Below are positions 40 through 3,097 of a stretch of DNA of 30,042 nucleotides, one piece after another. The DNA comes from a virus (taxonomy: Duplodnaviria; Heunggongvirae; Uroviricota; Caudoviricetes). A program made the translations under genes and the position numbers. The notes beneath the pieces are model-generated. The model searched no databases, was not told where the DNA came from, and was given only the letters and a program-made list of their open reading frames with translations. The first letter of the stretch is position 1. Every line of letters begins with the position of its first letter. Location: the IMG/VR virus record IMGVR_UViG_2711768048_000007; one strand, given 5' to 3'.

Positions 40-402
40 GGGGCTGATTCTGGATTCGACGGGATTTGCGAAACCCAAGGTGCATGCCGAGGGGCGGTTG
101 GCCTCGTAAAAAGCCGCAAAAAATAGTCGCAAACGACGAAAACTACGCTTTAGCAGCTTAATAACCTGCTTAGAGCCCTCTCTCCCTAGCCTCCGCTCTT
201 AGGACGGGGATCAAGAGAGGTCAAACCCAAAAGAGATCGCGTGGAAGCCCTGCCTGGGGTTGAAGCGTTAAAACTTAATCAGGCTAGTTTGTTAGTGGCG
301 TGTCCGTCCGCAGCTGGCAAGCGAATGTAAAGACTGACTAAGCATGTAGTACCGAGGATGTAGGAATTTCGGACGCGGGTTCAACTCCCGCCAGCTCCAC
401 CA
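40..402 (+). ncRNA. ssrA: tmRNA (SsrA), complete
   Basis: Begins GGGGCTGATTCTGGATTCGACGGG and ends with the tRNA-like arm GGTTCAACTCCCGCCAGCTCCACCA; 363 nt, as expected for enterobacterial tmRNA. A TATACT -10-like hexamer lies upstream at 20..25. Confidence 0.95.
358..395. repeat. attL core: 38-bp direct repeat inside the ssrA 3' end
   Basis: ATGTAGGAATTTCGGACGCGGGTTCAACTCCCGCCAGC is repeated exactly at 26630..26667; the sequences diverge immediately after (TCCACCA here, CCACCA at the right copy). Confidence 0.85.
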
Positions 403-510: not shown

Positions 511-1284
511 TTACAACTTAAAGAGTTTCGCTTGCCCTGGATTAACAGCTTCGACGTAGTTTTTGACCCCTATTCTGTGCGGCTCATAATTGCTTGAATA
601 GAAATCAATCAGGAAGTCACTCATTTTCTGAGATGTGACTTTCATAACTCCCTTACTCAAAGTTAAATTAAACACGCTAATCTTTGACGATGGTGCCTGA
701 GTTTTACTCATGTTGGCTTGATAACCAGATTTACGCATTGCCACTAGTGCTTCGTCGTAAGCCGCTTGTAATTGGGCCAAATCGTTTGACGAGATGATCA
801 CATCATCCATAAACACACTTAGCTTGAGATCATGATGTTTGTTCAATCGGCGTAGTAAGCTACCAAAATAACTTTTATCTAAGCAGAGGGTTGCAAGTAT
901 TGGAGATTGAACAAAACCAAAAGGGAGGACATGCTTATGTGGACTATGGGACAAGTTTCTTACAGTTGAAAATGTTGAGATTTCCCGCGCTTGAGAATAG
1001 GTGAAGTAGCTCTTTAGATCACGGGTGATACGACTACGGCTCGTTGACTGAAAAAATTGTTTAATATCAACAACGGCAAAAAAATCACTTTTTAAGTGTA
1101 ATCTGGCAGCTTTAAGATGCCCACCAGTTCTTAGATGGTAAAAATAGAGTGGCGGAATCCACTTGTTTCTGACAGCCTGAAGTATCTTCCCTCCGACTTT
1201 ACGTGCCTCAACGCTTGGGACATAAACCCAAACCCCGGGCTTAATCTCAAATTTATCTTCCCACCTTTGAACTTCTATTGTCAT
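511..1284 (-). CDS. compact reverse transcriptase (257 aa), family unassigned
   Basis: The translation carries RT palm motifs in the correct order: FFAVVDIKQFF (motif A with Asp), PFGFVQSPILATL (motif B-like) and SVFMDDVIIS (catalytic xxDD, FMDD variant). True ATG start, with a TAA two codons upstream in frame. Confidence 0.75.
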   Translation of the reverse strand: MTIEVQRWEDKFEIKPGVWVYVPSVEARKVGGKILQAVRNKWIPPLYFYHLRTGGHLKAARLHLKSDFFAVVDIKQFFQSTSRSRITRDLKSYFTYSQAREISTFSTVRNLSHSPHKHVLPFGFVQSPILATLCLDKSYFGSLLRRLNKHHDLKLSVFMDDVIISSNDLAQLQAAYDEALVAMRKSGYQANMSKTQAPSSKISVFNLTLSKGVMKVTSQKMSDFLIDFYSSNYEPHRIGVKNYVEAVNPGQAKLFKL

Positions 1285-1426
1285 GAGTTAAATTGTTGTA
1301 GTTGAAGGCCATGTTAAGAACGGCGTAAACCGCACCAACTAAGCCAACAAACGCGGTTGCGCATTTGAGCATAGCGGTGATCAGTTCAACACGCGCCTTA
1401 ACTAAGCCAAGTTCGTTTGTATCCAT
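1253..1426 (-). CDS. small membrane peptide (about 57 aa, one hydrophobic helix), upstream of and overlapping the RT gene
   Basis: GGAGG lies 8 nt upstream of the second ATG (MDTNELG...). Hydrophobic stretch LITAMLKCATAFVGLVGAVYAVL. The 3' end overlaps the RT start by 32 bp, suggesting translational coupling. The first in-frame ATG is at 1441. Confidence 0.5.
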   Translation of the reverse strand: MDTNELGLVKARVELITAMLKCATAFVGLVGAVYAVLNMAFNYNNLTHDNRSSKVGR

Positions 1427-1687
1427 AACTTGTTCCTCCATAGATACCTGACGTCTCTTAGCGCAAGCGCATGGCCCTAACTAAATAAAAAATAACAACC
1501 AGTTAGCCCAGAAAGCTTAACAAGTCGGCGTCCGATTACATGGCAATCAGGTAATCGGTCCGCAGTCGCAAAGCGACAAACTACATATCTACGGAGTGGG
1601 GATAAATCCCCGCTAACGTCAGGCATTGTTAATTTAACCTCAACTTATAGAAAAGTATAGTTTTAAATCATGTAGTTATGTCGCCAT

Positions 1688-1906
1688 TTAAATCGGCAAA
1701 CCCACCTGTTTAAATTTATGAGGATGCGGCTGAACCGGATTTGACTCTTTTGGCGTTGCAATCGAACGAACAAAAGTTTCATGGGTAACAAAAGTATGGC
1801 TGCAGTTAATGTTCTGGCACTGGTTGTAACGCTCTTTGGTCAATGAAGATACCTGAAAACTGCTGCGAGTATGGGCGGCACTTCCACACAGTGGGCAAAT
1901 CATCAT
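1688..1906 (-). CDS. ogr: Ogr-type late-gene transcription activator (zinc finger)
   Basis: MMICPLCGSAAHTRSS...YNQCQNINCSHTF gives the C-x2-C ... C-x4-C pattern of P2 Ogr. The start is chosen to give about 72 aa; the longest ORF begins at 1939. Confidence 0.85.
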   Translation of the reverse strand: MMICPLCGSAAHTRSSFQVSSLTKERYNQCQNINCSHTFVTHETFVRSIATPKESNPVQPHPHKFKQVGLPI

Positions 1907-1996
1907 TTTTCGAGTTCTCCCCATTTTTGCTAAATTCACAATAATGATATCGCATTATTCCATTTTTCAAACTTAAAAGTTCTCCATTGTGAAGAA

Positions 1997-3097
1997 TCAT
2001 TCCATTTCGAGATCATCAACCTTCACTTCAAGCTCAAGACTGGTCGTAAAACCATTATCCGGGCTGACGGTATGTGTCAGAGTCGTAATGGTCCATTCCG
2101 CATCATCTATCGGCTGTTTAAAGCCACTGACTTTCACTGGCATTTCCGTGTAGAGATCTGCCCGCCCTTCCGCCAGTTGTAGCGAGAATGACGCAACGCC
2201 GCGTTGCAGGCGTTCCCACTGCATTTTCGCTGCCCGTTCAGCGTTGCTCCGGTTGGCATAAGTGCGATTAAGTACCAGCACGTTTTCATCCGTACCCACC
2301 AGGTAATCGCCCTGCTTCGCTTCCAGCTCTTTCTTCTGCTTCTTAGTCCTGCGCTTACGCTTCACCGTGGTGCTTTCTTTCTTCGCGGGTTCGCGGGTAT
2401 GCAACCAGCTGGCAATTATGCCCGTATAGGCTCCGCGATCTGCCAGGGTAAAGCGGTGACTGTCGCCGTCCTTACGTGTGATAGTGATCACCGGCAGTGG
2501 TTTACCGCTGGCACTTTTGCCCTGTCCCTGCCGGATGAATAACAGATTGCCATTTTTCACCGACGCAATAGCACCGTACTGGCGCGCCAGCCGCATCAGA
2601 AAACTACCGTCACTCTCATTAGTCTGGTCTATATGCTCCACGAGCTTATCCGACAGGTCTTTACCCAGTACCATCTTCAGCTTGTGCCGCGCGGCTATCT
2701 CCTTCACCACTTCCCCAATGGTGGTCTTGTGCCACGATTTTTCACGGCGGGTATTCAGCGTTTCCCGAAAATCAGCACTTCGCGCCCGGATAGTCAGGCG
2801 GTCCGGTGCGCCAGTGTGTTCAATCTCGTCCACCGTGAATGCCCCTTTCGGGAAAAGCGGCTGCCCCTTCCAGCCCAGCGCCAGCGTAATGACCGCACCA
2901 CGGCGCGGCAGCACGATTTTCCCGTCGGCATCGTCCAGCTCCAGATCAAGCTGGTCTGCTTCAAAGCCCCGATTGTCCGTCAGAGTCAGACTCATCAGGC
3001 GGTTGTCCAGCACAGTGGTGATATCCCTGCCTGCAATACTGATGCTGAATGCGGGAGTTTTGTTGCCTTTGTTAAGCAGTTCAGAGCTGAAATTCAC
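1997..3097 (-). CDS. D: tail protein D (late control gene D family)
   Basis: 366 aa, lying between U and ogr as in P2. GTG start overlaps the U stop (GTGA). Confidence 0.85.
   Translation of the reverse strand: MNFSSELLNKGNKTPAFSISIAGRDITTVLDNRLMSLTLTDNRGFEADQLDLELDDADGKIVLPRRGAVITLALGWKGQPLFPKGAFTVDEIEHTGAPDRLTIRARSADFRETLNTRREKSWHKTTIGEVVKEIAARHKLKMVLGKDLSDKLVEHIDQTNESDGSFLMRLARQYGAIASVKNGNLLFIRQGQGKSASGKPLPVITITRKDGDSHRFTLADRGAYTGIIASWLHTREPAKKESTTVKRKRRTKKQKKELEAKQGDYLVGTDENVLVLNRTYANRSNAERAAKMQWERLQRGVASFSLQLAEGRADLYTEMPVKVSGFKQPIDDAEWTITTLTHTVSPDNGFTTSLELEVKVDDLEME

What the first reader, a model, noticed from the sequence alone, without database searches (positions are those of the whole stretch)
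1442..1687. Densely structured non-coding stretch upstream of the RT module, a candidate ncRNA
The 246 bp between the ogr stop and the small ORF hold several perfect short hairpins: GTCGC-AAA-GCGAC (1565..1577), GGGGA-TAAA-TCCCC (1597..1610) and CCGATTAC-N11-GTAATCGG (1532..1558). A 12-13 bp inverted repeat, GACAAACTACAT (1575..1586) against ATGTAGTTATGTC (1670..1682), brackets about 85 nt. In retrons the RT uses an adjacent structured RNA flanked by inverted repeats; an RT-associated ncRNA here is plausible but unproven. It could equally be the ogr terminator or attP arm structure.
Basis: seen in the sequence. Interest (0 to 1): 0.45.

Follow-up and report, generated by a model that had tools for sequence, protein, structure and literature searches.

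The report
Retron-like RNA gating a small protein
The flagged stretch is a real, conserved, folded RNA that belongs to a very compact reverse-transcriptase cassette carried by a P2-like prophage, and one of its helices hides the ribosome-binding site of a small hydrophobic protein encoded just downstream.

Summary
On the minus strand, window 1624..1436 is a ~190-nt structured RNA. It lies directly upstream of a 57-aa small protein (SP, 1426..1253) and an overlapping 257-aa reverse transcriptase (RT, 1284..511).

- **Conservation:** a covariance model finds the element in 63 of 80 sources (62 RT loci plus the window), always in this position.
- **Terminal helix P1:** 1623..1616 pairs with 1454..1447. 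It starts at the likely transcription start, and all 8 pairs covary.
- **Crossing helix P2:** 1596..1586 pairs with 1446..1436 and covers the SP Shine-Dalgarno in every member.
1575-1586/1670-1682 is not conserved. One arm lies upstream of the promoter.

The RT is retron-like but fits no named type. There is no third conserved gene and no Rfam family.

The closest known systems are Type VI retrons. Their hybrid RNA combines an msr-msd template with a translationally repressed small toxin. This cassette lacks their HTH protein and has a different SP.

Reverse transcription and toxicity are inferred, not shown. I rate it a new variant of a known kind.

The parts
1410..1627 (-). Whole conserved RNA element as matched by the covariance model (leader of the SP-RT operon, running into the first SP codons)
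   Evidence: Model R1 gives 82.6 bits, E = 8e-16, and this is the only hit in the window. The same element is found in 63 of 80 sources.
1631..1636 (-). -10-like hexamer TAAATT. It places the transcript start at about 1624, at the foot of P1. A weak -35-like TATACT lies at 1659..1654.
   Evidence: A TAnnnT hexamer ends 6-7 nt before the first P1 base in 33 of 45 family members. Coordinates. The block is conserved in near relatives. The consensus scan did not call it, so this is an inference.
1616..1623 (-). P1a, 5' arm of the terminal long-range helix (CCUGACGU), a1-like
   Evidence: Inverted repeat I2. Recovered by RNAalifold on a sequence-only alignment. 7 of 8 pairs and 8 of 8 pairs show changes on both sides.
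1613..1615 (-). UAG immediately 3' of P1a, with A and G invariant: candidate branching-G context
   Evidence: A14 and G15 are invariant and T13 is at least 90% conserved in 46 sequences. A priming role is an inference.
1598..1611 (-).
   Evidence: Helix 2 has 4-5 of 7 pairs with double changes. It is also present in the single-sequence fold.
1586..1596 (-). P2a, anti-Shine-Dalgarno strand (CUCCGUAGAUA)
   Evidence: Inverted repeat I1. Duplex energy -14.2 kcal/mol. Cognate against non-cognate tests.
1565..1577 (-). It is GUCAC nnn GUGAY in most members.
   Evidence: Helix 3 is nearly invariant, with AU-to-GC compensation at one pair.
1496..1558 (-). Candidate msd or template stem.
   Evidence: The sequence is unrelated between lineages but folds better than shuffles: mean z = -2.0, and 35 of 46 members have z < -1. 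The 1532-1558 stem covaries in near relatives (ATTAC/GTAAT against ATGCC/GGCAT).
1457..1485 (-). Most conserved block: UUUAGUU (UUGGUU in most members), then CAU-GCGC-uu-GCGC-UAAG (hairpin C at 1470..1461)
   Evidence: Invariant and near-invariant columns. Helix 4 is 99% paired.
1447..1454 (-). P1b, 3' arm of the terminal helix (ACGUCAGG), a2-like
   Evidence: Same evidence as P1a. Duplex energy -12.1 kcal/mol.
1435..1446 (-). P2b (UAUCUAUGGAG, 1446..1436), overlapping the SP Shine-Dalgarno GGAGG (1439..1435)
   Evidence: The complementary run includes the purine-rich SD-like stretch in 45 of the 46 members listed.
1253..1426 (-). Small protein SP, 57 aa: basic N-terminus, long hydrophobic or amphipathic helix, invariant Asn-Tyr (LNMAFNY)
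   Evidence: Conserved ORF upstream of and overlapping the RT start. dN/dS is 0.17-0.20. The NY codons vary synonymously. All database homologues are 'hypothetical protein'.
511..1284 (-). Compact reverse transcriptase, 257 aa, with catalytic Asp residues intact (D73, D160, D161 invariant)
   Evidence: Pfam RVT_1 at 77 bits. Best PADLOC, NCBIfam and PDB matches are all retron RTs, but weak. Family alignment.

Best explanation
Window 1624..1436, read on the minus strand, is the cognate non-coding RNA of a self-contained three-part cassette: ncRNA, small protein SP, compact retron-like RT. The cassette sits as cargo between ogr and the ssrA attachment site of a P2-like prophage.

Shown by sequence comparison:
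- The RNA most likely starts at a promoter whose -10 box ends about 6 nt before the first helix.
- Its 5' end pairs with a segment about 160 nt downstream (P1, like retron a1/a2), followed by an invariant UAG.
- It carries three conserved hairpins (A, B, C).
- Its central hairpin region is free to vary in sequence and length, like a retron msd stem.
- The strand just after hairpin A (P2a) pairs with the Shine-Dalgarno region of SP (P2b). P2 crosses P1, so the two helices form either a pseudoknot or two alternative states.

Inferred:
- The RT binds this RNA and copies the segment between P1b and the 5' domain into cDNA, starting next to P1 as retron RTs do.
- While P2 is formed, translation of SP is held low. 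So is translation of the RT, which overlaps the SP ORF and has no Shine-Dalgarno of its own in this window.
- When cDNA accumulates, or when synthesis runs through the anti-SD strand, P2 opens and SP is made. SP would be a membrane-active or otherwise toxic effector that stops growth of the infected cell.

This is the logic reported for the Type VI Retron-Vpa2. Here it is realised with a different SP, a smaller RT and no HTH partner.
For: Element and association:
- The covariance model hits 63 of 80 sources (62 RT loci plus the window), always just upstream of SP and RT on the same strand, and hits the window once.
- Starting instead from an RNA motif, 9 of 9 model-positive viral contigs have a family RT 125-180 nt downstream.
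- No other gene family recurs in more than 4 loci.

P1:
- Found by RNAalifold on a MAFFT-only alignment.
- 7 of 8 pairs have double changes, and 0 of 500 shuffles reach the observed score.
- On 61 distinct sequences, 8 of 8 pairs have double changes and 93% of cells are paired.

P2:
- Cognate duplexes average -14.7 kcal/mol against -9.7 for non-cognate pairs, with 0 of 5000 permutations as good.
- The median ungapped run is 9 bp, with 38 distinct helices. All but one of the 46 include the SD-like stretch.
- P2 is the top-ranked inverted repeat in the window region.

Other RNA features:
- The variable hairpin has mean z = -2.0.
- A -10-like box sits at a fixed distance from P1.

Proteins:
- RT: every best match is a retron RT. 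Ec86 aligns over residues 13-249 (E = 2.5e-12), and RT_VI is the top PADLOC model for all 31 members tested. The catalytic Asp residues are invariant.
- SP is under purifying selection.

Precedent:
- Type VI retron hybrid RNA with a translationally repressed SP toxin that msDNA derepresses (bioRxiv 10.1101/2025.10.22.683967).
Against: - There are no expression, cDNA or phenotype data for this family. Reverse transcription of this RNA, SP toxicity and anti-phage function are all inferred.
- The RT lacks the retron signature motifs. VTG is VFN, and only the His of NAxxH is kept. It scores far below every curated retron cut-off, for example 49.5 bits against 235.
- P1 and P2 cross, which is not a feature of described retron RNAs. 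With 0-3 nt between P1b and P2b in this window, it is uncertain whether both can form at once.
- RT translation appears coupled to SP translation: the ORFs overlap by 4 to more than 100 nt. It is unclear how RT would be present before SP is released.
- In Retron-Sen3, a Type VI retron, SP is made constitutively and controlled after translation. A sequestered ribosome-binding site therefore does not guarantee a translational switch.
Confidence: 0.65

Rival explanations
1. The RNA is only a cis-acting translational leader. It would be a folded 5' UTR that throttles a small hydrophobic toxin, as in type I toxin mRNAs such as hok or tisB, and perhaps an operator for RT autoregulation. In this reading it is never used as a template, and the RT works on something else or without a template.
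For: SD sequestration is the one function that can be read directly from the sequence. SP and RT are translationally linked. Nothing here shows cDNA. The RT lacks the retron hallmark motifs.
Against: A simple leader needs neither three near-invariant hairpins nor a terminal helix that starts at the transcript's 5' end with an invariant UAG. It also does not need a length-variable central hairpin, which is the typical layout of retron msr-msd RNAs. The RT's nearest relatives all use an adjacent RNA as template.
Confidence: 0.2
2. A DRT2-like system. P1 would bring the two ends of a template together, the RT would copy it round and round, and the concatemeric cDNA would encode a new open reading frame.
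For: P1 juxtaposes the ends of the RNA, and short UAGG motifs lie next to both P1 arms. DRT2 RNA is also pseudoknotted (abstract of PMC12039810).
Against: Unit lengths between the two UAG(G) motifs fall evenly in all three classes modulo 3 (17/15/14). Only 9 of 46 members have any stop-free frame over three concatenated units. The central region is not conserved in sequence. The RT does not group with UG2; its best matches to the UG/DRT models are weak.
Confidence: 0.03
3. Phage housekeeping or chance: an ogr terminator, attP arm structure, or hairpins with no function.
For: The position is just downstream of ogr and near a prophage end.
Against: No terminator-like site is found. The att site is beyond the RT. 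The element is conserved with covariation in loci lacking ogr and outside prophages, across Gamma-, Beta- and Alphaproteobacteria.
Confidence: 0.01

Closest known systems
Type VI retrons (Retron-Vpa2, Retron-Eco12, Retron-Sen3): hybrid RNA of msr-msd plus SP toxin
   Same: - Gene order: ncRNA, then small protein, then RT, on one strand.
- The ncRNA has terminal inverted repeats, conserved stem-loops and a variable central stem.
- The SP ribosome-binding site is paired within the ncRNA.
- RT_VI is the best-scoring defence-system RT model for every family member.
- Short RT.
- Literature read.
   Different: - No HTH gene and no third conserved gene.
- SP is 40-60 aa with an invariant C-terminal Asn-Tyr, not the 75-79 aa three-helix proteins described. 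It matches nothing in PADLOC, Pfam or PDB.
- The RT scores only 63 bits on RT_VI, barely above RT_I-B and RT_IX, and is about 255 aa long.
- The SD is held by a separate helix that crosses the terminal helix, rather than lying in the basal stem itself.
- SP overlaps the RT directly.
Canonical retrons (for example Retron-Eco1/Ec86, type II-A)
   Same: - An upstream msr-msd-like RNA with an a1/a2-like helix and a conserved G-containing triplet next to it.
- A hairpin-rich 5' part and a variable stem in the 3' part.
- The RT aligns with Ec86 RT over almost its whole length.
   Different: - The RT lacks about 50 N-terminal residues of Ec86 RT, and the VTG and NAxxH motifs.
- The effector is a tiny protein, not an enzyme.
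- There is an additional SD-pairing helix.
- msDNA has not been shown.
Type I toxin-antitoxin mRNAs (hok, tisB and similar)
   Same: A small hydrophobic protein whose Shine-Dalgarno is locked in a long-range 5' UTR fold. This comparison rests on my own knowledge of those systems.
   Different: No antisense RNA is evident. The partner is a reverse transcriptase, and the leader has retron-like architecture.
DRT2 (UG2 RT with pseudoknotted ncRNA)
   Same: A single RT plus a structured, pseudoknotted upstream ncRNA, with no enzymatic effector gene.
   Different: The RT lineage differs. There is no constraint for an in-frame repeat unit. A separate SP gene is present.

Membership tests
Retron (general) | RT belongs to the retron RT lineage | tested here: inconclusive
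   All top PADLOC, NCBIfam and PDB matches are retron RTs. Scores are far below curated cut-offs (49.5 bits against 235 for retron_St85_RT). No tree was built.
Retron (general) | Adjacent ncRNA on the RT strand, closed by inverted repeats a1/a2 | tested here: met
   P1 is 1623..1616 with 1454..1447. 8 of 8 pairs show compensatory changes, and 0 of 500 shuffles reach the observed score.
Retron (general) | Conserved priming G at the inner end of a1 | tested here: inconclusive
   An invariant A-G within UAG lies directly 3' of P1a. A 2'-5' branch cannot be tested here.
Retron (general) | msd region forming a stable stem-loop of variable sequence | tested here: met
   The variable region folds as a hairpin in nearly all members: mean z = -2.0, length 34-101 nt.
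Retron (general) | RT signature motifs NAxxH and VTG (recalled from the retron literature) | tested here: not met
   Alignment to Ec86 RT: VTG aligns with VFN (F205 and N206 invariant), and only the His of NAxxH is conserved.
Retron (general) | Production of msDNA (RT-dependent ssDNA from the ncRNA) | not testable with these tools
   Needs wet-lab detection. Type VI retrons show that basal levels can be undetectable.
Type VI retron | Cro/C1-type HTH protein encoded between SP and RT (about 78% of Type VI entries) | tested here: not met
   SP overlaps the RT directly in this window and in the family. No neighbouring gene family is shared by more than 4 loci.
Type VI retron | SP from the described clusters (cl2075, cl2760, cl3272, cl3897; 75-79 aa three-helix bundle) | tested here: inconclusive
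   SP here is 40-60 aa with an invariant NY and has no named homologue.
Type VI retron | SP ribosome-binding site sequestered by the ncRNA | tested here: met
   P2 includes the SD-like stretch in 45 of the 46 sequences listed. It covaries.
Type VI retron | RT within the monophyletic Type VI clade | tested here: inconclusive
   RT_VI is the top model for 31 of 31 members, but only marginally: best E = 1.9e-24 against 3.7e-22 for RT_I-B.
DRT2 | Template whose concatenation yields a continuous ORF | tested here: not met
   Unit length modulo 3 is evenly spread. 37 of 46 members have no stop-free frame.
Any Rfam family | Match at the gathering score | tested here: not met
   Only tmRNA is found in the window. 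In 1380-1720 the best E-values are 1.3 and 3.5, to unrelated families.

The most novel reading that the evidence does not exclude
The small protein is not merely a toxin but an obligate partner of the RT. It would be a detached N-terminal module whose invariant tyrosine primes or anchors DNA synthesis. In that case this lineage would couple a retron-type RNA with protein-linked cDNA, and the SD-hiding helix would set the stoichiometry of primer protein and polymerase.

Observations that leave this open:
- The conserved part of SP ends in an invariant Asn-Tyr within about 0-30 nt of the RT start codon.
- SP and RT are fused in frame in two loci.
- The RT lacks the N-terminal extension of Ec86 RT.
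- SP and RT appear translationally coupled.
Probability: 0.07. Interest if true: 0.85.

Novelty: new variant of a known kind. Interest (0 to 1): 0.62.

Why it matters
If the inference holds, this is a minimal retron-type immune module of about 1.1 kb: one promoter, one RNA, a roughly 50-aa effector and a roughly 255-aa RT. It is widespread in Proteobacteria and rides on P2-like and other phages, yet I found it absent from Rfam, Pfam, PADLOC and NCBIfam naming, and I found no paper describing it.

It offers a stripped-down system, without the HTH partner, for one open question: how reverse transcription is converted into translation of a toxin. The anti-SD/SD helix gives a directly testable switch through compensatory mutants.

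The compact RT with a defined cognate RNA could also interest those who engineer retrons.

For annotation, the covariance model and the SP profile would let these cassettes be recognised. At present they are labelled 'reverse transcriptase domain-containing protein' plus 'hypothetical protein'.

Tried and rejected
- **Rfam:** searched at gathering score and at a permissive E-value; no relevant family.
- **SP databases:** PADLOC, Pfam, NCBIfam and PHROGs gave nothing for SP. A PDB profile search gave nothing significant.
- **DRT2-like rolling-circle gene assembly:** rejected.
- **DGR-like template/variable repeat pair:** no second copy of the element in the window.
- **Programmed frameshift joining SP to RT:** unlikely, because the RT frame relative to SP is mixed, 35/11/1.
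- **Third conserved gene, for example HTH:** none found.
not conserved.
- **ORF 1477..1626 (49 aa) overlapping the RNA:** its ATG is absent in all nine near relatives aligned, which read ACC or GCC there, so I treat it as spurious.
- **Look-ups of the closest RT homologues by exact protein:** I worked round this with viral contigs and SP homologues.
- **Per-column covariation count for P2:** not possible, because neither the MAFFT nor the model alignment keeps P2 in register. I used alignment-free cognate against non-cognate tests instead.
- **Literature:** searches by accession and by keywords found no description of this family. The supplement of the retron classification paper is not held. 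The family could therefore be listed there as an unassigned or HTH-less entry.

Full report
**Context.** The window starts with the tmRNA gene ssrA (40-402, 295.8 bits), followed by a P2-like prophage read on the minus strand. In order, the genes are tail gene D (3097..1997), ogr (1939..1688, Pfam Ogr_Delta), the flagged non-coding stretch, a small ORF (1441 or 1426..1253) and a 257-aa reverse transcriptase (1284..511, Pfam RVT_1) that abuts the attachment site. The same arrangement is annotated in complete E. coli genomes as 'reverse transcriptase domain-containing protein' plus 'hypothetical protein'. The cassette is rare. It occurs in 33 of 5,426 complete E. coli genomes, always as a single chromosomal copy. 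It is nearly identical in a set of Klebsiella phage records.

**Checking the observation.** The interval and the three short hairpins are as described, one of them shifted by a single base. In an unbiased scan it ranks seventh. The two best inverted repeats were not noticed: 1436-1446 with 1586-1596, and 1444-1454 with 1616-1626. The minus-strand RNA folds better than all 200 shuffles (z = -2.67).

**The RT family and its small partner.** The RT belongs to a coherent family of about 250-260-aa proteins. 72 clusters were found by sequence search. In one genome per species, 130 stretches encode a relative and 79 loci were kept. They are mostly Gamma-, Beta- and Alphaproteobacteria, with a few MAGs labelled as other phyla. 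The catalytic aspartates are invariant.

In most of the loci scanned, a 40-60-aa ORF ends inside the first codons of the RT. Its product starts with a basic N-terminus (often MKK), continues as a long hydrophobic or amphipathic helix and ends in an invariant Asn-Tyr, typically LNMAFNY. It is a real gene:
- dN/dS is 0.17-0.20 against relatives whose RT is about 80% identical.
- The Asn-Tyr codons vary at synonymous positions.

It has no match in PADLOC, Pfam, NCBIfam or PDB. Every database homologue is called 'hypothetical protein'. No other gene is shared by more than four loci, so the unit is RNA plus SP plus RT.

**The RNA.** Upstream of SP, 46 non-identical sequences share one architecture. 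In window coordinates, read on the minus strand, it is:
- a -10-like box at 1636..1631;
- P1a at 1623..1616;
- a UAG at 1615..1613, with A and G invariant;
- hairpin A at 1611..1598;
- P2a at 1596..1586;
- hairpin B at 1577..1565;
- a variable region with two hairpins at 1558..1496;
- the conserved block UUUAGUU...CAU-GCGCuuGCGC-UAAG at 1485..1457;
- P1b at 1454..1447;
- P2b at 1446..1436, overlapping the Shine-Dalgarno GGAGG at 1439..1435;
- the SP start codon at 1426.

RNAalifold on a sequence-only alignment recovers P1 and hairpins B and C. On that alignment 7 of 8 P1 pairs show changes on both sides. No shuffle in 500 reaches the observed covariation, and sliding the partner by 1-3 columns drops pairing from 88% to 28-41%.

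A covariance model built from it hits 63 of 80 sources (62 RT loci plus the window), always at the same place and strand, and hits the window only once. On the 61 distinct aligned sequences all 8 P1 pairs covary. The variable region has unrelated sequence and lengths of 34-101 nt, but folds into a hairpin more stable than shuffles (mean z = -2.0).

A TAnnnT hexamer ends 6-7 nt before P1 in 33 of 45 members, so the transcript probably begins at the foot of P1.

The association also holds in the reverse direction. I scanned viral contigs for the hairpin-C motif and filtered the hits with the model. This gave nine elements, and all nine have a family RT 125-180 nt downstream.

**The helix that covers the ribosome-binding site.** The strand after hairpin A is complementary to the Shine-Dalgarno region of SP in every member. 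The helix sequence differs between lineages, for example CCUCAUCAA/UUGAUGAGG, CCUUUGACAUA/UAUGUCAAAGG and CUCCGUAGAUA/UAUCUAUGGAG. The median ungapped run is 9 bp, and there are 38 distinct helices. Cognate partners pair much better than partners swapped between genomes: -14.7 against -9.7 kcal/mol, with 0 of 5000 permutations as good.

P2 crosses P1, so the RNA is either pseudoknotted or switches between states. I could not obtain a per-column count for P2 because neither alignment keeps it in register.

**What it most likely is.** Every best match of the RT is a retron RT. Ec86 aligns over residues 13-249, and the Type VI model is the top PADLOC hit for all 31 members tested. The scores are low, however, and the retron motifs VTG and NAxxH are not kept.

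The RNA has the retron layout: a terminal inverted repeat at the 5' end, a conserved G-containing triplet beside it, hairpins in the 5' part and a variable stem in the 3' part.

The closest described systems are Type VI retrons, whose operon is ncRNA-SP-HTH-RT. [quoted passage not shown] The present family shares this logic. It differs in having no HTH, a different and shorter SP, a smaller RT that overlaps SP, and a dedicated crossing helix for the SD.

I therefore propose that the RNA is both the RT's template and scaffold and a riboregulator. cDNA synthesis would open P2 and release SP, either by running through the anti-SD strand or through the accumulating product. These last steps are inference.

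**Rivals.**
- A purely regulatory leader is possible (about 0.2). It does not explain the retron-like architecture.
- A DRT2-like concatemer gene is not supported. Unit lengths show no triplet constraint, and most members have no open frame.
- Terminator, att-arm or chance explanations are excluded by the comparative data and by position.

**Limits.** There are no experimental data. The supplement of the retron classification paper is not held, so I cannot exclude that members are listed there without a type.

Noticed in passing
window ~1610 (inside hairpin A); locus L001 4209-5600: In some E. coli genomes (for example WP4-S18-ESBL-08, EC6563, FDN-24, FDN-9) the match to the cassette stops at window 1610. 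In L001 an IS421 transposase gene is annotated there. This splits the promoter, P1a and UAG from the rest of the RNA and from SP and RT, so it could be an inactivation of the cassette.
   Followed up: partly
window 40-402: Complete tmRNA gene (ssrA). The P2-like prophage is integrated at its 3' end, and the RT cassette is the last cargo before the junction.
   Followed up: partly
L035 2766-3762; L054 1311-2148: In two metagenome-assembled genomes the SP reading frame runs straight into the RT with no stop codon, giving an SP-RT fusion. The L054 RT frame is cut short, so assembly error is possible.
   Followed up: no
L093-L098 (SP at 1501 in each): The same RNA-SP-RT cassette sits in different contexts in other Enterobacterales: after ogr in P2-like prophages, next to phage portal and terminase genes, beside a P4-like primase plus a RelB/ParE pair, and in a non-phage setting. 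In five of the six loci it lies next to an Asp-Al_Ex transporter gene rather than ssrA.
   Followed up: partly
window ~1500-1520; alignment A7 columns 183-200: The variable region of near relatives carries one to three copies of a 9-nt unit (TTACTGGGY). This copy-number variation lies inside the putative template stem.
   Followed up: no
window 1639-1663 (minus strand); alignment A7 columns 27-55: A block AAAACTA...ATTAG upstream of the -10-like box is conserved among near relatives, and beyond what a -35 element would need. It may be a regulator binding site. Any link to Ogr or late-promoter control was not examined.
   Followed up: no
Klebsiella phage records OK490395 and 12 others (hits H26-H38): Thirteen Klebsiella pneumoniae phage records carry ogr plus the cassette at 99.3-99.5% identity to this E. 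coli window, at the very end of the record. This indicates recent spread across genera on P2-like phages.
   Followed up: no
window 1417-1446 (minus strand): In the nested minimum-free-energy fold, P2b (UAUCUAUG) pairs instead with the SP start region (UAUGGAUA). This local hairpin would leave the SD in a loop but bury the start codon. I did not check whether this alternative is conserved.
   Followed up: no
NZ_CP010160.1 (hit H58): E. coli strain H1 matches only the first 547 nt of the 1,117-nt cassette query (window 511-1057, all inside the RT gene). It appears to hold a truncated copy.
   Followed up: no
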